IMG/VR virus record: IMGVR_UViG_3300032053_005312
Span: 14,650-78,649 of that record
Length of the DNA stretch: 64,000 bases
From: a virus
Reading direction: 5' to 3' (one strand)
How positions within the stretch are numbered: the stretch's first letter is position 1; each line of letters opens with the position of its first letter. Positions 9,996-33,399 of this stretch are shown here, piece by piece. A program made the translations under genes and the position numbers. The notes beneath the pieces are model-generated. The model was not told the DNA's origin and made no database searches. It saw nothing but the letters and a program-made list of their open reading frames with translations.

Positions 9996-10278
9996 ACATT
10001 TATAAACCTATTCGTGATGGTCCAGACAGAAAGAAATTTCTCGTTTGGAACTACTTGGAGAATCTAATGCCAACAATCTCATTGAGATTAGCTTGGATGC
10101 CCCCTGGCCACCGGAAAACCGAGATCAGGGTCAATGATTTGAGTGGTTCTTGGCACTGGCAGGCTGTCAGGAGTGGGGATTCTGTCATAGAATAGCCGAA
10201 CTAAGGTTCGCTCAAAGGGAGCGGACACGAATAAGGCGAATAAAGGCAGAGCGGGACCACAGATTATCTGCTAACTTT

Positions 10279-10348
10279 GTTCCGTCCGTTGGATTGCGGC
10301 GTCGAGTTTCCTAAACTTGATAAATTGGTTCGATTCCAATACGGAATA
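10279..10348 (+). tRNA. Non-canonical tRNA-Arg(CCT)
   Basis: gttccgt/acggaat+A; D arm ccgt-tggatt-gcgg; gtcgagt-ttCCTaa-acttgat; attgg-ttcgatt-ccaat. Confidence 0.78.
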
Positions 10349-10378
10349 CTTTGGTGTTTGTTGTCAGAAAGGATTGCC

Positions 10379-11910: not shown

Positions 11911-12300
11911 ATGCGAACGAGAAACAACGAGTTGAATCGCACTCATCAACAGCGATGGTATGCTCAAAATAAAGAGCTTCAAATACAAAGAAACAATGCC
12001 AATCGAGAAAAAAAGCTGACGTGGTTCATTGAATATAAAAGGAATTTGAAGTGCGAGTTGTGTCCTGAATCCCATATAGCGGCTTTGGATTTTCATCATT
12101 GTGATCCAAAGAAGAAAAGAGCGGGCATTAACAGACTGATAAATAACAACAATAGTTTAGAGGTCATACAAGAAGAAATACAAAAGTGCAGGGTGTTATG
12201 CAGTAATTGTCATCGCAAACTACACTACGAAGAAAAGACGGGAGCATGGTGTAACGGTAGCACACGGGATTTATACCCCCGGCCTAAAGGTGAAGCCTGA
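11911..12300 (+). mobile_element. Free-standing HNH homing endonuclease; ORF reads into the downstream tRNA
   Basis: CELC..ALDFHH..EEIQKCRVLCSNCHRKLH; AT-rich. Confidence 0.8.
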
Positions 12301-12337
12301 TTAGCTTCAAGAGAAGGTTCGATTCCTTCTGCTCCTA
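12240..12337 (+). tRNA. tRNA-Ile(TAT) with a 31-nt variable region
   Basis: gggagca/tgctcct+A; gtgt/gcac; cggga-ttTATac-ccccg; gaagg-ttcgatt-ccttc. Confidence 0.72.
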
Positions 12338-12350
12338 CTATGTGATTGCA

Positions 12351-12638
12351 ATGGGCAAGAACAACAAATACCACAAATTCCCTCCCCGCAAGCAGGTTCC
12401 TGTCGGCGGGGTTTGTCTTTTGTGTGAATGCAACAGACAAGTGCGAATGGCAGCACGACCCTTTGTTAAGGGCAAGGCAATTTCTAATGCCCTGGGCTTT
12501 CCTGCACCGATGCCATTGATTTGTCCAGGGATGATATTCAAAGGCGTCAATAACTTGACAGGCGAAGAGGAATCGTTCAAAGTACATTGTGTATTGATTC
12601 TGAATCCAGAACGTAGTTCAGTAGAAAGAATAAAATGA
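12351..12638 (+). CDS. Hypothetical Cys-containing protein
   Basis: ORF overlapping the GluRS start (ATGA). Confidence 0.5.
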   Translation: MGKNNKYHKFPPRKQVPVGGVCLLCECNRQVRMAARPFVKGKAISNALGFPAPMPLICPGMIFKGVNNLTGEEESFKVHCVLILNPERSSVERIK

Positions 12639-21183: not shown

Positions 21184-21472
21184 AACAGCAACGTGCATGG
21201 GTTGTTTTGTGAATAACCCAAGAATATGGGATAATCAACATTTGGAGTCCTTGCGGACCAATCCGACAACCTTCAGTGCGATTGGCTTGACCGCCGATGA
21301 GAAATTGTGTCTCAAGCATTTGGCCGATGCGTGGAATTTGTTCGTCAATATGGCCGCAAAGCATCCAGACGACGACAGTGAATTCCATACGGCAATACAT
21401 GACGCACAAAAAATGATCGCTCTGCGGGTTGCTCGTCGAGTGGACACAGACGTATGGAAGCAGCCAGAATGA
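21173..21472 (+). CDS. Hypothetical protein
   Basis: LADAWNLF..HPDD..FHTAIH..ALRVARR phage-type motif. Confidence 0.6.
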   Translation: MPTETATCMGCFVNNPRIWDNQHLESLRTNPTTFSAIGLTADEKLCLKHLADAWNLFVNMAAKHPDDDSEFHTAIHDAQKMIALRVARRVDTDVWKQPE

Positions 21473-21960
21473 AAGTAATATCCGGTGGGCAAACTGGAAG
21501 TGATGAAGCTGGTCTTCGAGCGGCGAAAGCGTGCGGTTTTGAAACTGGAGGATGGTTGCCCCAAGGCTGTAAAACTCTTGATGGGACACGACCAGACCTA
21601 TTGACAGAATACGGCATGAAAGAGCATAGTAGTTCTCTCTACCCGCCCAGGACTGAGGCAAATGTCAAGGACAGTTGTGGCACCATAAGATTTGCTAGGA
21701 CATTCTCTTCAGCCGGGGAAAAGTGTACTCTCCGTGCGATCAAGTGGTTTAATCGTCCGTATTTGAACGTGGATATAAATAAGCCGATAGATAAACAGGA
21801 AGTATTGTCTTGGCTTAAAGAGCATGATATAAAGATTCTCAACATTGCTGGGAATTCTGAGGAAACCGCTCCCGGCATTGGCGATTTCGTCTTTAAGTAT
21901 CTCATGGGTGTCTTTTCCGACGTAAAAAACGGGCTTGACAACATGACCCATGCGGAGTAA
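21469..21960 (+). CDS. Circularly permuted YpsA SLOG-family protein
   Basis: KVISGGQTGSDEAGL, TGGWLP, YPPRTEANVKDS, LNIAGN. Confidence 0.85.
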   Translation: MKVISGGQTGSDEAGLRAAKACGFETGGWLPQGCKTLDGTRPDLLTEYGMKEHSSSLYPPRTEANVKDSCGTIRFARTFSSAGEKCTLRAIKWFNRPYLNVDINKPIDKQEVLSWLKEHDIKILNIAGNSEETAPGIGDFVFKYLMGVFSDVKNGLDNMTHAE

Positions 21961-23764: not shown

Positions 23765-25407
23765 ACGAGTTCCACATTTCAGAAAAAGACAACAACACCA
23801 CGTTCGTCACCACGGCGATTGATTATCCGAATGCTATGCCGCATATTGGTACAGCTTTCGAGAAGATCGGTGCAGACGTGTACGCCCGGTTCCGTCGATT
23901 CCAGGGTCGTGATGTATATTTCACGATGGGCAATGACGAGAACACGGTGAAAGTGCTTAAAGCGGCGAAGGCTGTGGACAAGCATCCTCAGCCATATGTC
24001 GATGAAATGGCCGAAGCGTTTAAGGCTGTGTGGAAAGAACTCAATATTTCCTTTGACGATTTCATTCAGACCAGCGAAGATCGGCATCTGTTGGGCGTTC
24101 AGAGATTTCTGCGTGCTGTTAATGCTGCTGGATATATCGAGAAGCGACCATACAAGGCTCTCTATTGTGAGGGCTGTGAAGAGTTCAAGAGTCCAAATAG
24201 CTTGGACCATGCAAAGCGATGCCCGAACCATACTGGCACACCGTTGGTGGAGCGGGAGGAAGAGAATTACTTCTTTCTTCTATCTGCATTCAAGCAGCGT
24301 GTGGCTGATTTGATTTATCCTACTCCATTCCTCACTGCTTTCCTGAGTATCGAGCCAGAGTCTCGTTACAACGAAGTCACCAAGTTCATCAACACGGAAC
24401 TGACGGATATTTCCATCAGTCGCCGCAATGAAGGCTGGGGCATTCCAATTCCTTGGGATGATACACAGGCCACCTATGTCTGGTTCGACGCTTTGTTGAA
24501 CTATTTGACCGTGATTGGTTTCGGGAACGATTGGGAGAAATTCCAAAAGTATTGGCCTGCTGAAGTTCACTTCATCGGCAAGGACATTACTCGGTTCCAC
24601 TGTGCATTGTTCCCGGCAATGTGCATGGCATACAACGAAGGCTGTGATAAGTTGGGTGAACCTCAATACAAGTTGAAGGCTTTCCCTCAGCGTGTATTCG
24701 CCCACGGATTCGTGAATCAAAAGAAGGGAAGTCAGGTTGTCAAGATTTCCAAGAGCGGAGATTCAATCCAACCTGGAGAACTGATTGAGCAGTTCGGGTC
24801 GGATGCGTATAGATATTACTTCTTGTCGAAGTTCAACTACGATACGGACGGCGAATATAGCCTGGACCACTTCAGAGAAGTGTATAACGCTGACCTCGCC
24901 AACTCTTTGGGCAACCTCGTGAGTCGTACTGTAGGAATGTCGATGCAGTATTTCGACGGGAAGATTCCACCGATGGCCGCAGAAGGCCAGACTTGGCTTG
25001 ATGAGAAGACGGCGTTGGAATACGAGCAATTTATTGTGGATTGTTGTTCGTATCGGCACGCTCTTGAATTGACGTGGAAGATCATCTTCAACGCCAACAA
25101 GCTGATCGAGGATTCCAAGCCGTGGGAGTTGGTTAAGTTGCCCGGCAACACCTGCGGTCAGGTGTTGGGCCAACTTGTGGGCAGTCTGAGAATCATCAGT
25201 CTGTTGATCCGACCGTTCACTCCAGCGGTGGCCGAGAAGATTTACACGACGTTCCAGTGGGCTGAAGGTTGGAATGAACTCGATTGGGAGTTCGTCAAGA
25301 AGTTGTCTGAAAACAACTTCCTGGGACTCGAAAACGGTATTGCCATCAATAGGAATGTTTTAGATAATGCCGGAAAGTTTCCAGTGTTGTTTCCGAGGGC
25401 CAAATGA
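23761..25407 (+). CDS. metG: Methionyl-tRNA synthetase
   Basis: TTAIDYPNAMPHIG, DDFIQTS, YCEGCEEF, YVWFDALLNY, IGKDITRFH, KISKS, LANSLGNLVSR, KPWEL. Confidence 0.93.
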   Translation: MNEFHISEKDNNTTFVTTAIDYPNAMPHIGTAFEKIGADVYARFRRFQGRDVYFTMGNDENTVKVLKAAKAVDKHPQPYVDEMAEAFKAVWKELNISFDDFIQTSEDRHLLGVQRFLRAVNAAGYIEKRPYKALYCEGCEEFKSPNSLDHAKRCPNHTGTPLVEREEENYFFLLSAFKQRVADLIYPTPFLTAFLSIEPESRYNEVTKFINTELTDISISRRNEGWGIPIPWDDTQATYVWFDALLNYLTVIGFGNDWEKFQKYWPAEVHFIGKDITRFHCALFPAMCMAYNEGCDKLGEPQYKLKAFPQRVFAHGFVNQKKGSQVVKISKSGDSIQPGELIEQFGSDAYRYYFLSKFNYDTDGEYSLDHFREVYNADLANSLGNLVSRTVGMSMQYFDGKIPPMAAEGQTWLDEKTALEYEQFIVDCCSYRHALELTWKIIFNANKLIEDSKPWELVKLPGNTCGQVLGQLVGSLRIISLLIRPFTPAVAEKIYTTFQWAEGWNELDWEFVKKLSENNFLGLENGIAINRNVLDNAGKFPVLFPRAK

Positions 25408-25592
25408 GCAGATTGATGTTGGTTCTAGGATTAGTCATTGGGTTTTGGGCGGGCCATTGGTTCGCCCGAACTTCATGGCATCAACGATGGTATGCTCAGT
25501 GGTATGAGGGGTTTCTCAACGGCGCTGTTGTTGCAGCAATACTGGTGGGCATCTACTTCATTGTCATAAGAAATTGGAAACAATCTTCTTAG
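25404..25592 (+). CDS. Small membrane protein
   Basis: Two TM segments; ATGA overlap. Confidence 0.6.
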   Translation: MSRLMLVLGLVIGFWAGHWFARTSWHQRWYAQWYEGFLNGAVVAAILVGIYFIVIRNWKQSS

Positions 25593-25667
25593 GGGTTGCA
25601 CGGTGAGTCCAATCGGTAAGGCGCAAGTCGCTCCGATTAACTGAGGGTTCGATTCCCTCCAACTCCA
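25592..25667 (+). ncRNA. Anticodon-less Ala-acceptor tRNA-like RNA resembling the tmRNA tRNA-like domain
   Basis: ggggttg/caactcc+A (G3.U70, A73), stem aatcgg/ccgatt capped by ggc-GCAA-gtc, T arm gaggg-ttcgatt-ccctc. Confidence 0.68.
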
Positions 25668-26353: not shown

Positions 26354-26611
26354 ATGAGTGATTGCGAAGTGGCCCAATTCAGCAGAATGGCCATCCCTTT
26401 GATGAGGAGGATATATCCTCAGCTTATTGCCAACCAGATATACAGTGTTCAGCCATTGGCTTGCCCAACTGGTTTAGTGCATTATTTGCGATATAAATAT
26501 TCTGAGAACAAAGGCAGCACCATCAATACCGATGGTTGGATCATCAAGTCCAAGAAGAAAAAGATTTGGCGTGACATCAACGATCCGTGGGAGCCTTCTA
26601 GCAATGGCTGA
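26354..26611 (+). CDS. Mini-protein carrying a T4 gp23-like major capsid fragment and WRDINDPWE tail
   Basis: IPLMRRIYPQLIANQIYSVQPLACPTGLVHYLRYKY follows the conserved gp23 segment RR.P.LIA...VQP..GPTG. Confidence 0.75.
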   Translation: MSDCEVAQFSRMAIPLMRRIYPQLIANQIYSVQPLACPTGLVHYLRYKYSENKGSTINTDGWIIKSKKKKIWRDINDPWEPSSNG

Positions 26612-26834
26612 GAATATATGGTATCGTATTCGCAAGCATCTTGGGATGTTGTCCTATGAGGAAAGTCGCATTGAATCGAGTGAGCAGGTAAAGAACTCGA
26701 TCAGGGCGCAAATGATACATCCCGATGACGTTAATTGGTCTGATGGAATCAAGACCGAGAATATTCCCAAAAAAGATAAACTGCGGCCCAGGTCGATTCT
26801 CGAAGATTGGGGAGTAACCCAAGATTCGGGCTGA
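26604..26834 (+). CDS. Hypothetical protein with RSILEDW tail
   Basis: Coupled ORF. Confidence 0.55.
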   Translation: MAENIWYRIRKHLGMLSYEESRIESSEQVKNSIRAQMIHPDDVNWSDGIKTENIPKKDKLRPRSILEDWGVTQDSG

Positions 26835-26878
26835 ACCTTTTGGCAGCGGCGATCTCTAGTAGTGTAAGGAGAAACATC

Positions 26879-27283
26879 ATGGCAGTAAAGCAAGTTATCG
26901 TTTGGCGACACGATTTAGGTTGTCGAGTTGGCAAGAAGATGTCGCAAGCGGGTCATGCTGCTTTGGCCGACTTGTCGAACACGATTCGTGACAATGTTGA
27001 TGCCGAAGGTAATGTATCGTTCAAGCTGTCGCCTGCACAGTTTGAGTGGTATTTGACGAACTTCCGTAAGATCGTTCTCCGTGTTGACAGTGAGGCCGAC
27101 CTGTTGCTTCTGTACCATCTGGCGCAGGAAGTGGGGTTGCCGACTGAACTCATCATCGACAGTGGTTTGACGGAATGGGATCAGCCCACAAAGACTTGCA
27201 TCGCTATCGGGCCAGCAGAAGATGCCGAGATTGACGAGATCACTGGTGAGCGTGGCCCTTTGGGAAGATTGAAGTTGATGTGA
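26879..27283 (+). CDS. pth2: Peptidyl-tRNA hydrolase, Pth2 type
   Basis: KQVIVWRHDL..GKKMSQAGHA..KIVL..IIDSGLTE..TCIAIGP. Confidence 0.9.
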   Translation: MAVKQVIVWRHDLGCRVGKKMSQAGHAALADLSNTIRDNVDAEGNVSFKLSPAQFEWYLTNFRKIVLRVDSEADLLLLYHLAQEVGLPTELIIDSGLTEWDQPTKTCIAIGPAEDAEIDEITGERGPLGRLKLM

Positions 27284-31232: not shown

Positions 31233-32037
31233 ATGAGAAATGTCAAAATCATGAATCAAGGACACGGCGGCAAATCTTCGGCAACATCCTGTCTTTAGCG
31301 ACTCTAAAGTTCTAATCTTAGAACTGCATGGCGGGGAAGGTGGCGAAGACTCGAAGTTGTTCGTCGCCGATTTACTTGAAACCTATCTCAAATACGCTTC
31401 CAACTGTGGATTAGGCTATGAAGTCCTGACAAAAGAACACGGTCACGCAATTGCCAAGATCACAGGCAAAGGCGTCTGGAAAGCGTTTCAAAACGAACCC
31501 GGCAAACACGTTGTACAGCGTGTCCCACCCACAGAGCGTGGTGGGCGACGGCAAACCTCTATTGTGACGGTTTCTGTCATGCCGCTGCCTCCTGAGAACA
31601 CTCAGGAGCCGCTTCGTGAAAAAGACCTGGACATTATCTTTCAGACGGGCAAGCAGAAGGCAGGCGGTCAAAACGTCAATAAGGTGGCGTCAGCCGTCCG
31701 CATGAAGCATAAGCCGACTGGAATGATGGTGTTCATCAACGGTAGAGATCAGAAGCAAAATCTCGATGAGGCGTTGCGCATTTTGACCTTCAAGGTCAAT
31801 GAGCAAAAGCGGCTCAAGATCGAGGGCGAATACGATCAATCCCGTAAGACGCAGATGATGAGCGGCGGTGATCGAATTGGTGGTAGAGGCGATAAAATTC
31901 GCACCTACAACTTCATTCAGTCTCGTGTCGTGGATCACAGGCTTGGTCGCAAAACGGCAAACATCAAAGAGGTCATGAAGGGTAATTTCTCCATCCTGTT
32001 CAATGATGGAGAAATGTCTGGCAGTGACGACGAATAA
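31233..32037 (+). CDS. Class I peptide chain release factor homolog (RF1-type PxT, no domain 1), predicted +1 frameshift at 31293-31299
   Basis: LELHGGEGGEDSKLF, EPGKHVVQRVPPTE, AGGQNVNKVASAVR, KIRTYNF..RVVDHR; CTT-TAG-C joins ATG31233 to the conserved frame. Confidence 0.85.
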
Positions 32038-32472: not shown

Positions 32473-33399
32473 ATGGCAAACGTAATTAAAGAACTGTACG
32501 ACAAGAGATTGACAAATCTCGGCGGTCATCGCTGGATTCCAGACAACATGCACTACATCACAATGATGGGTAGTGTGGCCTATGGTGTTTCAAACGATAC
32601 GTCCGACACGGACATTTATTCCTTTTGCATTCCACCAAAGGAAGAATTGTTTCCGCATCTTCGTGGCGAAATCGTAGGCTTTGGCGATGCCGTACACGCC
32701 AATAATAGATTCACCAATTACCAAGAACACCACATCAAAGATGTCGGTGCCGAGAAAGAATATGACCTCAACATTTACAATATTGTTGACTTCTTTCAGT
32801 TGGTGATGGAAAACAACCCTAACATGATTGACTCTTTGTTTACGCCTCAATGGTGCGTATTGCATAGCACCAGAGTCGGCCAGATGGTGCGAGAGCAGAG
32901 GAAGATATTCCTTCATTTAGGAAGCTGGAATACTTTCAAAGGCTACGCCTATTCACAGCTAAAGAAGTGTGGGTCAAAGAAGCGAACCGGGAAGCGAAAG
33001 CAAGTGGTAGACGAAATGGGCTTCGACCCTAAATTCGCTTACCATATTGTGAGAAATCTGAATGAAATCGAACAGATTCTCACAGAGGGCGATCTGGACC
33101 TACAGCGAAATAGAGAACAATTGAAGGCTATTCGCCGTGGGGAATGGTCGCTCGAACAGATAGAAGAATATTTCGAGCGGAAAGAACTTGAGCTAGAAAC
33201 TCTGTATAATGAGAATAAAGCCGGTTTACCTTGGGGGCCTAAACACGATGGTTTGCAAGAGAAAGTTAAACAACTTCTCTTTCAGTGCCTCGAAGAACAC
33301 TATGGATCGCTTGACAAATGTATTGTCAATCCAGATGCCGCAGTGATGGCTCTCCGGGAGGTTGGCGACGTTCTCGCAAAATACAGAAACCTTCTATGA
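32473..33399 (+). CDS. Pol-beta superfamily nucleotidyltransferase (RlaP/YcgL-like)
   Basis: GSVAYG..SDTD, NNPNMIDSLF, KGYAYSQL, FDPKFAYH, LKAIRRGEW. Confidence 0.85.
   Translation: MANVIKELYDKRLTNLGGHRWIPDNMHYITMMGSVAYGVSNDTSDTDIYSFCIPPKEELFPHLRGEIVGFGDAVHANNRFTNYQEHHIKDVGAEKEYDLNIYNIVDFFQLVMENNPNMIDSLFTPQWCVLHSTRVGQMVREQRKIFLHLGSWNTFKGYAYSQLKKCGSKKRTGKRKQVVDEMGFDPKFAYHIVRNLNEIEQILTEGDLDLQRNREQLKAIRRGEWSLEQIEEYFERKELELETLYNENKAGLPWGPKHDGLQEKVKQLLFQCLEEHYGSLDKCIVNPDAAVMALREVGDVLAKYRNLL

What the first reader, a model, noticed from the sequence alone, without database searches (positions are those of the whole stretch)
25592..25667. tmRNA-TLD-like mini RNA with Ala identity but no anticodon or mRNA domain
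Seen: G1-C72, G2-C71, G3.U70, A73, a perfect T arm, a roughly 12-nt D region, and a stem closed by a GCAA tetraloop in place of an anticodon. Known: this is the layout of the tmRNA tRNA-like domain, and ORF-less tmRNAs occur in jakobid mitochondria. Inference: it may sequester SmpB or rescue stalled ribosomes without ssrA tagging, fitting the nearby Pth2, RRF and release factor. An alternative D stem (cggt/atcg) can be drawn but gives no anticodon arm.
Basis: partly seen in the sequence, partly recalled or inferred. Interest (0 to 1): 0.75.

Follow-up and report, generated by a model that had tools for sequence, protein, structure and literature searches.

The report
Huge-phage tag-less mini-tmRNA-like RNA
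A giant sediment phage carries a real, conserved 76-base gene for an alanine-type tRNA look-alike with no anticodon, a divergent member of the little-studied "tRNA-like-domain-only tmRNA" class known from mycobacteriophage DS6A; its close relatives also encode the partner protein SmpB but no full tmRNA.

Summary
Window 25592-25667 (+) folds as a 7-bp acceptor stem with G3.U70 and A73, a perfect T arm, a 12-nt D region and an extended hairpin where the anticodon arm should be. ARAGORN and Rfam gathering thresholds miss it.

It is not a decaying tRNA-Ala. Syntenic copies downstream of MetRS in two other huge-phage lineages, and copies in a tRNA array of a third, keep the hairpin through compensatory changes: 14 pairs, 100% paired, 6 pairs changed on both sides.

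The class is known from mycobacteriophage DS6A ("TLD only"), where a similar molecule inhibits E. coli tmRNA.

This copy is atypical. It lacks the UCGAC/GGAC hallmark of the tmRNA tRNA-like domain. It scores only about 6 bits above the phage's own tRNA-Ala with a model built without loop bias. Its ortholog in a complete 532-kb phage keeps a tRNA-Ala-type D arm.

Relatives (340 kb and 532 kb) encode a full-length SmpB but no tmRNA above threshold. A more distant relative (436 kb) has SmpB plus a full and a reduced tmRNA.

Most likely function, inferred only: alanylated, SmpB-dependent entry into stalled ribosomes without tagging, and/or competition with host tmRNA.

The parts
25592..25667 (+). 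Whole RNA gene, 76 nt before CCA addition: anticodon-less alanine-identity tRNA-like RNA (TLD-only tmRNA-like)
   Evidence: Sequence; fold; Rfam tmRNA 22.5-31 bits, below threshold; R1 44.2 bits; R2 35.9 bits; conserved in L009, L290, L011, L030, L299
25592..25598 (+). Acceptor stem 5' strand GGGGTTG (G3 = 25594)
   Evidence: Pairs with 25660-25666; G3.U70 is kept in every relative
25599..25610 (+). 12-nt D region CACGGTGAGTCC. It has no D stem when P2 forms and contains a GG.
   Evidence: The CACGG motif is shared with L030, L111 and the 143-nt reduced tmRNA of G012
25611..25638 (+). Central arm replacing the anticodon arm: P2 AATCGG/CCGATT (25611-25616 / 25633-25638), 5' bulge UAA (25617-25619), upper stem GGCG/CGCU (25620-25623 / 25629-25632), CAAGU loop (25624-25628)
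   Evidence: All 9 counted pairs are 100% paired in 6 sequences; 4 of them change on both sides
25639..25642 (+). 4-nt linker AACT, in the position of a variable loop
   Evidence: Canonical TLD-only RNAs have GGAC here
25643..25659 (+). T arm GAGGG-TTCGATT-CCCTC
25660..25667 (+). Acceptor 3' strand CAACTCC (U70 = 25664) plus discriminator A73 (25667). It is followed by C-T-A, so CCA is not encoded.
   Evidence: The same N73-C-T trailer follows about 33 of the 36 phage tRNAs
23761..25407 (+). Context: methionyl-tRNA synthetase, the synteny anchor used to find orthologous loci
   Evidence: Pfam tRNA-synt_1g, 3.5e-84; relatives
25404..25592 (+). Context: 62-aa ORF whose TAG stop shares its G with G1 of the RNA
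   Evidence: weak Phage_holin_2 match
26807..27283 (+). Context: peptidyl-tRNA hydrolase Pth2
   Evidence: Pfam PTH2, 6e-26
31357..32037 (+). Context: class-I release factor (PCRF C-terminal part + RF-1/GGQ domain), syntenic with the RNA in G001 and G002

Best explanation
Window 25592-25667 is a functional gene for a roughly 76-nt RNA that keeps the alanine-accepting 'top half' of a tRNA but has a closed hairpin instead of an anticodon arm. The retained parts are the acceptor stem with G3.U70 and A73, the T arm, and a short D region. It is a divergent huge-phage member of the class known as TLD-only (CDS-less) tmRNA.

Proposed mechanism:
1. The RNA is cut out of a polycistronic transcript by the tRNA-processing enzymes (RNase P at the 5' end, RNase Z-type cleavage after A73). 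It then receives CCA, like the phage's 36 CCA-less tRNAs. This step is inferred from the shared N73-C-U trailer and from its position inside a tRNA array in one lineage.
2. AlaRS charges it with alanine. This is inferred from established knowledge that G3.U70 in the acceptor stem is sufficient for AlaRS.
3. It binds SmpB, which this phage lineage encodes itself. The co-occurrence is shown; the binding is inferred.
4. As an Ala-RNA/SmpB complex it enters the empty A site of ribosomes stalled on broken mRNAs and accepts the nascent chain. This step is inferred.
5. Because it has no resume codon or tag frame, no degradation tag is added. The peptidyl-RNA would be resolved by drop-off or hydrolysis, for which the same gene block supplies Pth2, a release factor and RRF. 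This step is inferred.

The net effect would be tag-less ribosome rescue that also competes with the host's tagging tmRNA.
For: Real and selected:
- The hairpin, T arm and acceptor are kept in three divergent lineages, with 6 of 14 counted pairs changed on both sides and 100% of cells paired. Slid controls pair 49-67%.
- Orthologs lie downstream of MetRS in contigs whose MetRS is 97% and 49% identical.

Class membership:
- Model R1, seeded from IMG/VR minis, scores DS6A's published TLD-only element at 55.2 bits and the window at 44.2 bits. The phage's own tRNA-Ala genes score 22-26 bits.
- Model R2, seeded without loop bias, gives DS6A 58.3, the window 35.9 and own tRNA-Ala 23-29 bits.
- The family structure covaries strongly, and G3.U70 is present in 19 of 19 seed sequences.

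Partner protein:
- A full-length SmpB with its C-terminal tail is encoded in G001 (the 340-kb near-identical relative) and in G002 (532 kb, CheckV 100%).
- Neither has a tmRNA or permuted tmRNA above 47 bits.
- The same search finds a 364-nt tmRNA (114.8 bits) and a 143-nt one (55.2 bits) in the related phage G012, so the method works in this group.

Processing:
- The phage tRNAs lack encoded CCA and share an N73-C-T trailer, as the element does.
- In G003 and L299 it sits 4-5 nt upstream of tRNA-Leu.

Context:
- MetRS, Pth2, an ArgRS-like protein, a release factor and RRF lie nearby. The release factor is syntenic in G001 and G002.

Literature:
- DS6A is listed as 'TLD only', and a similar molecule inhibits E. 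coli tmRNA (PMC4131195; PMC11915505, both citing Mao et al. 2009).
- CDS-less mitochondrial tmRNA co-occurs with SmpB (PMC11915505).
Against: - No expression, alanylation or SmpB-binding data exist for this RNA.
- The UCGAC...GGAC motif (G.A pairs at the base of P2) is absent here. It is present in the canonical phage minis, and related forms occur in G012's tmRNAs. A phage SmpB 62% identical to G012's might therefore not recognise this RNA.
- With model R2 the margin over the phage's tRNA-Ala(GGC) is only 6.5 bits, and the G002 ortholog scores below that tRNA (26.6 against 29.4 bits).
- The G002 ortholog has a 4-bp D stem, U8 and an AGGU variable loop like tRNA-Ala. Its 5' part matches at 20 of 26 positions. 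A tRNA-like extended 'anticodon arm' may clash with SmpB's usual position.
- SmpB co-occurrence rests on two lineages. G000 itself is only 16% complete and shows no SmpB. Phage SmpB could equally serve the host tmRNA.
- Most phages carrying such minis, including DS6A and a complete 31.9-kb phage, encode no SmpB.
Confidence: 0.55

Rival explanations
1. Pure decoy. The RNA does not act on ribosomes. It titrates SmpB (and perhaps AlaRS or EF-Tu) and so shuts down host trans-translation and tagging during infection. This is the role proposed for DS6A-type TLD-only RNAs.
For: [quoted passage not shown] Most phages with such RNAs encode no SmpB.
Against: This lineage adds SmpB rather than removing it: G001 and G002 encode a full-length SmpB with a conserved C-terminal tail. 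G3.U70 and A73 are invariant across the family, which suggests that charging matters. The SmpB-contact hallmark UCGAC/GGAC is missing here, which would make a poor sponge.
Confidence: 0.2
2. A tRNA-Ala derivative with a job unrelated to SmpB. It arose from a phage tRNA-Ala by replacement of the anticodon loop. It might serve as an alanine donor outside translation, as a decoy for host tRNA-targeting defence nucleases or tRNA-binding proteins, or simply as an RNase P/Z processing signal that separates neighbouring mRNAs.
For: The G002 ortholog scores 49.1 bits with the Rfam tRNA model, with an 18-nt insert in place of the anticodon loop. It shares 20 of 26 5' positions, the D stem and the variable loop with G002 tRNA-Ala(UGC). 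The window copy lacks the TLD hallmark. The element abuts ORFs on both sides, with spacers of 0 and 2 nt. The genome holds other odd tRNA-like genes.
Against: The conserved central hairpin has the same layout as in bona fide TLD-only RNAs: P2, a 5' UAARG bulge, a 3-4 bp stem and a C-A-N-G-type loop. SmpB occurs without tmRNA in relatives. A mere processing signal would not need G3.U70 or a covarying extended hairpin.
Confidence: 0.15
3. An unusual decoding tRNA. It would have either an expanded 16-18-nt anticodon loop (a conserved GGC, an Ala anticodon, lies in UAAGGC) or a short intron that is removed to give a 7-nt loop.
For: GGC is conserved in the window, L011 and L030. With thresholds lowered to 70-80%, ARAGORN proposes tRNA-Leu(aag), or tRNA-Arg(tcg) with a 9-nt intron.
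Against: The two ARAGORN models disagree with each other and with Ala identity. The 'intron' solution gives different anticodons in the window (TCG) and in L011 (TGG). The GGC is base-paired in a covarying stem and is preceded by A, not U33. No 9-11-nt bacterial or phage tRNA intron mechanism is known (my own knowledge). Default ARAGORN and Rfam gathering thresholds call nothing.
Confidence: 0.04
4. A decaying duplicate of a phage tRNA-Ala gene, with no function.
For: The genome has three tRNA-Ala genes and many duplicated tRNAs. The acceptor and T arm resemble theirs.
Against: The non-tRNA central hairpin is conserved with compensatory changes across lineages whose MetRS is only 49% identical, and in a third lineage at a different locus. 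No copy in any relative shows an ordinary anticodon loop.
Confidence: 0.03

Closest known systems
TLD-only ('standard, no CDS') tmRNA of mycobacteriophage DS6A (JN698994: 28478-28557; tmRNA Website tmID 11587; Mao et al. 2009, as cited in PMC4131195 and PMC11915505)
   Same: It is a closed RNA of about 80 nt with a 7-bp acceptor stem, G3.U70, A73 and a T arm. It has no anticodon loop, tag frame or pseudoknots. The mRNA-like domain is replaced by a P2 hairpin with a purine-rich 5' bulge, a 3-4-bp stem and a C-A-N-G-type loop. It is phage-encoded, unannotated in the record and missed by ARAGORN. Models R1 and R2 hit both elements.
   Different: DS6A and the canonical family have GGU(U)UCGAC before P2 and G(G/C)AC after it; the window has GGUGAGUCC and AACU. 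DS6A scores 55-58 bits against 36-44 for the window. DS6A encodes no SmpB, whereas relatives of this phage do. The host phage is a roughly 0.5-Mb sediment phage with at least 36 tRNAs, not a 60-kb actinophage.
Bacterial one-piece tmRNA (SsrA, Rfam RF00023), including the huge-phage tmRNAs of relative G012
   Same: The acceptor stem with G3.U70 and A73 and the T arm align to model positions 1-17 and 346-374. The 5' CACGG of the D region resembles G012's 143-nt tmRNA. An SmpB gene is present in the lineage.
   Different: There is no mRNA-like domain, resume codon, tag frame or pseudoknots: 40 nt stand where the model has 328. The score of 22.5-31 bits is below the 47-bit gathering threshold. The G.A-pair motif at the base of P2 is absent.
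CDS-less organellar tmRNAs (jakobid and oomycete mitochondria, Rfam RF02544; two ~65-bp plastid forms, PMC11915505)
   Same: They consist of the tRNA-like domain only and co-occur with an SmpB gene encoded elsewhere. The presumed role is tag-less handling of stalled ribosomes.
   Different: The mitochondrial genes are usually circularly permuted and give two-piece RNAs. They are organellar, not viral. No specific sequence relationship was shown here: RF02544 is not listed among the matches, though clan filtering may hide it.
Canonical tRNA-Ala (Rfam RF00005), e.g. this phage's own genes at G000:483-554 and 12415-12488
   Same: It shares G3.U70, A73, the T arm, the N73-C-U trailer and, in the G002 ortholog, the D arm and variable loop.
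   Different: It has no 7-nt anticodon loop or anticodon. The window copy has no D stem. Neither ARAGORN nor Rfam at gathering threshold calls it.

Membership tests
TLD-only (CDS-less) tmRNA, DS6A type | Closed 65-95-nt RNA: 7-bp acceptor stem with G3.U70, discriminator A73, canonical T arm | tested here: met
   The same features appear in 19 of 19 seed sequences.
TLD-only (CDS-less) tmRNA, DS6A type | No anticodon loop and no tag reading frame; the mRNA-like domain is replaced by a short P2 hairpin | tested here: met
   The hairpin covaries. No conserved in-frame ORF was found by inspection of the window, L009 and L011 sequences.
TLD-only (CDS-less) tmRNA, DS6A type | D loop ending in UCGAC and a 3' GGAC linker (base-of-P2 G.A motif of the tmRNA TLD) | tested here: not met
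   The window has ...GAGUCC and AACU. The canonical members carry the motif because the search pattern required it. DS6A has UCGAC/GCAC.
TLD-only (CDS-less) tmRNA, DS6A type | Scores with a family covariance model clearly above ordinary tRNA-Ala | tested here: inconclusive
   R1: 44.2 bits against 22-26, but the R1 seeds share the CAAGT loop by ascertainment. R2 (unbiased): 35.9 against 29.4 for tRNA-Ala(GGC). The G002 ortholog scores 26.6.
TLD-only (CDS-less) tmRNA, DS6A type | Binds SmpB and interferes with or replaces trans-translation | not testable with these tools
   Only co-occurrence is available: SmpB in G001 and G002 without tmRNA.
tmRNA (SsrA, RF00023) | mRNA-like domain with resume codon, tag ORF and stop, plus pseudoknots | tested here: not met
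   40 nt stand in place of 328 model positions. ARAGORN -m finds nothing.
tmRNA (SsrA, RF00023) | Rfam gathering score of 47 bits | tested here: not met
   22.5 bits and 31 bits.
tRNA-Ala (RF00005) | Cloverleaf with a 7-nt anticodon loop carrying an NGC anticodon flanked by U33 and R37 | tested here: not met
   A 16-nt structured insert lies between the strands of P2.
tRNA-Ala (RF00005) | G3.U70 and A73 alanine identity set | tested here: met
   Charging itself cannot be tested here.
Mitochondrial tmRNA (RF02544) | Match to the specialised model; permuted two-piece gene | tested here: inconclusive
   It is not listed among matches with E <= 10, but 3 lower-scoring matches from the same clan were suppressed. 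The gene here is not permuted.

The most novel reading that the evidence does not exclude
In this huge-phage lineage a tRNA-Ala gene was converted, independently of bacterial tmRNA, into an anticodon-less SmpB partner. The G002 copy still has the tRNA-Ala D arm and variable loop, while the window copy has lost the D stem. Together with the phage's own SmpB it would form a minimal two-component, tag-less ribosome-rescue system. That would be a living re-run of the presumed origin of the tmRNA tRNA-like domain from tRNA-Ala, and a viral counterpart of the mitochondrial CDS-less tmRNA/SmpB pair.
Probability: 0.15. Interest if true: 0.75.

Novelty: new variant of a known kind. Interest (0 to 1): 0.45.

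Why it matters
TLD-only tmRNAs are documented for a single cultured phage and are invisible to ARAGORN, tRNA scanners and Rfam thresholds. Yet they recur in well over a hundred viral contigs.

This copy adds two points. First, giant phages that encode SmpB may pair it with a tag-less mini RNA rather than a tmRNA. If that holds, phages can rescue stalled ribosomes without marking their own unfinished proteins for degradation, or can out-compete host tagging. Second, it shows a form intermediate between tRNA-Ala and a tmRNA-like domain.

The SmpB plus 76-nt RNA pair would be a compact system for testing how tag-less trans-translation ends, a question still open for mitochondrial tmRNA (PMC11915505). 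Nothing here bears on function beyond inference.

Tried and rejected
- ARAGORN at default settings, with -i (introns), -m (tmRNA) and -mt: nothing. Only at thresholds of 70-80% did it return two mutually inconsistent tRNA models.
- Rfam at gathering threshold: no match.
- BLAST of the locus and of the element against 50,697 cultured phage records: either no match or T-arm-only matches.
- Conserved UAA as a zero-length-tag stop codon. A stop triplet is common but not universal in the A-rich bulge of the family, and DS6A, L063 and L107 lack one. It lies 6 bp from the core inside a closed hairpin. Rejected as unsupported.
- A short tag ORF (GCA AGU CGC UCC GAU UAA in the window) is not conserved in frame in L009 or L011. 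Rejected.
- 'CAAGU loop is universally conserved' was rejected. The loop-agnostic scan shows CACG, CAUG, CUUG and CAAG variants. The similarity of UAAGG..CAAGU to the tRNA-Leu(AAG) anticodon arm is judged coincidental.
- No RNA holder was listed for the locus among public runs; only sediment DNA runs hold it.
- The 462-kb metagenome contig carrying a close copy (L290) is not held for whole-record searches.
- Phage SmpB as a single query found only itself. As an alignment it mostly found host smpB at provirus ends, so no wider co-occurrence statistic was possible.
- Mao et al. 2009 and Jacob et al. 2004 could not be read. They are cited only through PMC4131195 and PMC11915505.

Full report
**1. 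What is in the sequence**

The window is bases 14650-78649 of a 78.6-kb IMG/VR viral record that CheckV rates 16% complete. That implies a phage of roughly 0.5 Mb. ARAGORN finds 36 tRNA genes on the record. Public runs that hold the locus are sediment metagenomes.

- a 7-bp acceptor stem with G1-C, G2-C and G3.U;
- discriminator A73;
- a 5-bp T stem with a TTCGATT loop;
- a 12-nt D region;
- a hairpin in place of an anticodon arm.

The competing D stem cggt/atcg also exists, and it excludes the central helix.

The gene is tightly wedged between ORFs. The TAG of the upstream 62-aa ORF shares its G with G1, and the next ORF starts 2 nt after A73.

Standard detectors miss the element. The Rfam tmRNA model aligns only its two ends, at 22.5 bits, with 40 nt where the model has 328.

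**2. It is conserved, not decaying**

I used the upstream MetRS (Pfam 3.5e-84) as an anchor and found orthologous loci:
- L009 lies in a 340-kb contig (G001) whose MetRS is 97% identical. It carries the element with two changes.
- L011 lies in a 532-kb contig (G002, CheckV 100%) whose MetRS is 49% identical. It carries an 82-nt version.

Pattern scans added three more copies. L030 is from a third huge-phage fragment (G003), L299 is a variant of L030, and L290 is a close copy on a 462-kb metagenome contig.

Across these six sequences the central helix P2, the upper stem and the T stem make 14 pairs. All 84 cells are paired, and 6 pairs change on both sides. With the 3' partners slid by 1-3 columns, only 49-67% of cells pair.

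The loop-closing pair is G-C, A-U or C-G in the three lineages. This supports a CAAGU pentaloop on a 4-bp stem.

**3. Processing context**

None of the phage's tRNAs encodes CCA. About 33 of 36 have the trailer N73-C-T, and the element has A73-C-T-A. In G003 and L299 the element sits 4-5 nt upstream of tRNA-Leu(UAG) inside a tRNA array.

I infer that it matures through the tRNA pathway. No promoter or terminator signal stands out locally.

**4. What class it belongs to**

The literature already names a phage 'TLD only' tmRNA in mycobacteriophage DS6A. [quoted passage not shown] 2009, which I could not read). CDS-less forms are also reported from mitochondria and two plastids (PMC11915505).

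A pattern requiring CAAGT plus an Ala-type 3' end returned many closed 68-82-nt RNAs whose 5' ends resemble tmRNA. A second pattern did not constrain the loop (TCGAC...GGAC..GGGTTCRANTCC, with a 20-45-nt gap).

The common plan of these RNAs is:
- acceptor stem;
- a D region ending in GGUUUCGAC;
- a P2 helix of 6-9 bp;
- a purine-rich 5' bulge (G/U-A-A-A/G-G);
- a 3-4-bp stem;
- a CACG, CAUG, CAAG or CUUG loop;
- GGAC;
- T arm.

On 19 loop-agnostic members the structure is 96.7% paired, 13 pairs change on both sides, and G3.U70 is invariant.

Scores with the two covariance models:

| Sequence | R1 (bits) | R2 (bits) |
|---|---|---|
| DS6A element (JN698994: 28478-28557) | 55.2 | 58.3 |
| Window element | 44.2 | 35.9 |
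| L030 | 40.8 | 36.2 |
| L290 | not scored | 35.8 |
| L009 | 40.9 | 34.8 |
| L011 (G002 ortholog) | 35.1 | 26.6 |
| Phage's own tRNA-Ala(GGC) | 26.3 | 29.4 |
| Phage's own tRNA-Ala(UGC) | 22.5-24.6 | 23.3-23.5 |

R1 was seeded from minis found with the CAAGT pattern, so its score for the window is inflated by that shared loop. R2 was seeded from the loop-agnostic set.

This scan has already reported DS6A-type minis many times in other genomes. The class itself is not new.

**5. How this copy differs**

It lacks the UCGAC/GGAC motif that flanks P2 in canonical TLDs. The motif is also present in modified form in the tmRNAs of the related phage G012. The R2 margin over tRNA-Ala is small.

The G002 ortholog keeps several tRNA-Ala features:
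- U8 and A9;
- a 4-bp D stem GCUU/GAGU with a GG loop;
- an AGGU variable loop.

It scores 49.1 bits with the Rfam tRNA model, with an 18-nt insert replacing the 7-nt anticodon loop. Its 5' part matches G002's tRNA-Ala(UGC) at 20 of 26 positions. The window copy has 6 nt fewer in this region and cannot form both a D stem and P2.

The lineage therefore spans a tRNA-Ala-like body and a TLD-like body that share one central hairpin (GG-UAA-GGCN-CAAGU-NGNN-CC). Whether it descends from a tmRNA or from tRNA-Ala cannot be decided with sequences this short. The shared CACGG in the D region with G012's 143-nt tmRNA is only a weak hint for tmRNA ancestry.

**6. The SmpB link**

SmpB (PF01668) is encoded in G001 (191.7 bits) and G002 (186.9 bits). 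These are full-length proteins of 143-146 aa. They align to solved SmpBs through most of the C-terminal tail. They are 50-62% identical to each other and to the SmpB of G012.

Neither G001 nor G002 has a standard or permuted tmRNA above the 47-bit threshold. Their best 'tmRNA' hits are tRNA-Ala genes and the mini itself.

The same search in G012 finds three things:
- a 364-nt tmRNA (114.8 bits, tag GETPAYRMAA*);
- a 143-nt reduced tmRNA (55.2 bits);
- SmpB.

The method therefore detects tmRNAs in this phage group.

G000 shows no SmpB, but it is only a 16% fragment. By contrast DS6A, a complete 31.9-kb phage and several other mini-bearing contigs encode no SmpB.

The mini lies in a conserved translation block: MetRS, the mini, Pth2, an ArgRS-like protein and a release factor (PCRF + RF-1). 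The release factor lies 6-8 kb downstream in G000, G001 and G002.

**7. Mechanism**

Shown:
- a conserved, structured, anticodon-less RNA gene with the alanine identity set;
- tRNA-like gene context;
- SmpB without tmRNA in relatives.

Inferred:
- processing and CCA addition;
- alanylation (G3.U70 is sufficient for AlaRS; established knowledge);
- SmpB binding;
- entry into stalled ribosomes;
- peptidyl transfer without tagging;
- resolution by Pth2, release factor or RRF.

I put 0.55 on this SmpB-dependent tag-less rescue or competition model. The rivals are:
- a pure SmpB sponge, 0.2;
- a tRNA-Ala-derived RNA with a role unrelated to SmpB, 0.15;
- an odd decoding tRNA, 0.04;
- a pseudogene, 0.03.

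The main weakness is the missing SmpB-contact motif. The second is that co-occurrence rests on two lineages.

**8. Verdict**

It is a new variant of a known kind. What is new is a huge-phage setting with SmpB co-encoded in relatives, no hallmark motif, and an ortholog intermediate between tRNA-Ala and a TLD. What is not new is the class: it is published (DS6A) and has been seen repeatedly in this scan.

Interest is moderate at 0.45. The most novel reading still allowed is convergent birth of a TLD from tRNA-Ala, forming a minimal phage rescue pair with SmpB. I give that a probability of about 0.15.

Noticed in passing
L168:1501-1643 (minus strand; = G012:325378-325520): A related 436-kb phage carries a 143-nt reduced tmRNA (RF00023, 55.2 bits) that ARAGORN does not call. 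It has a possible short tag frame (AYNENSAAT*). The same phage also has a normal 364-nt tmRNA (tag GETPAYRMAA*) and SmpB.
   Followed up: partly
window 26354-26611 (+): A stand-alone 85-aa ORF matches only the first 51 positions of the T4 major capsid protein Gp23 profile (Pfam, 2e-13). It lies among translation genes.
   Followed up: no
window 12240-12337 (+) and 10274-10349 (+): A 98-nt Rfam tRNA hit (50.4 bits) is not called by ARAGORN. An ARAGORN tRNA-Arg(CCT) is not reported by Rfam at gathering threshold. At G000:2030-2104 (outside the window) ARAGORN calls a 'tRNA-???' with a 2-nt anticodon. The genome seems rich in non-standard tRNA-like genes.
   Followed up: no
G002:30209-30892 (contig of L011): A 338-aa ORF matches only parts of the AlaRS catalytic domain (PF01411, 62 + 33 bits). 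This is a possible truncated alanyl-tRNA synthetase in the phage that also carries the mini RNA and SmpB.
   Followed up: no
L009:4851-5613 and L290 upstream of position 73: A roughly 250-aa ORF sits between the 62-aa ORF and the RNA gene in G001 and L290 but is absent from the window. In L290 this ORF reads 9 codons into the RNA gene and stops at the conserved UAA.
   Followed up: partly
window 25590-25592: The TAG stop of the upstream ORF overlaps G1 of the RNA. RNase P cleavage would leave that mRNA ending in ...UA, without a complete stop codon. Such an mRNA is itself a potential substrate for ribosome rescue.
   Followed up: no
window 32473-33399 (+) and 21454-21960 (+): An RlaP-family 'RNA repair pathway' nucleotidyltransferase (Pfam, 1.2e-12) and a circularly permuted YpsA SLOG protein (2.1e-33) lie in the same translation and RNA-metabolism block.
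   Followed up: no
L210 and L224 (IMG/VR loci): Two 95-nt TLD-only variants have a long, nearly perfect 18-20-bp P2 hairpin instead of the usual bulged arm.
   Followed up: no
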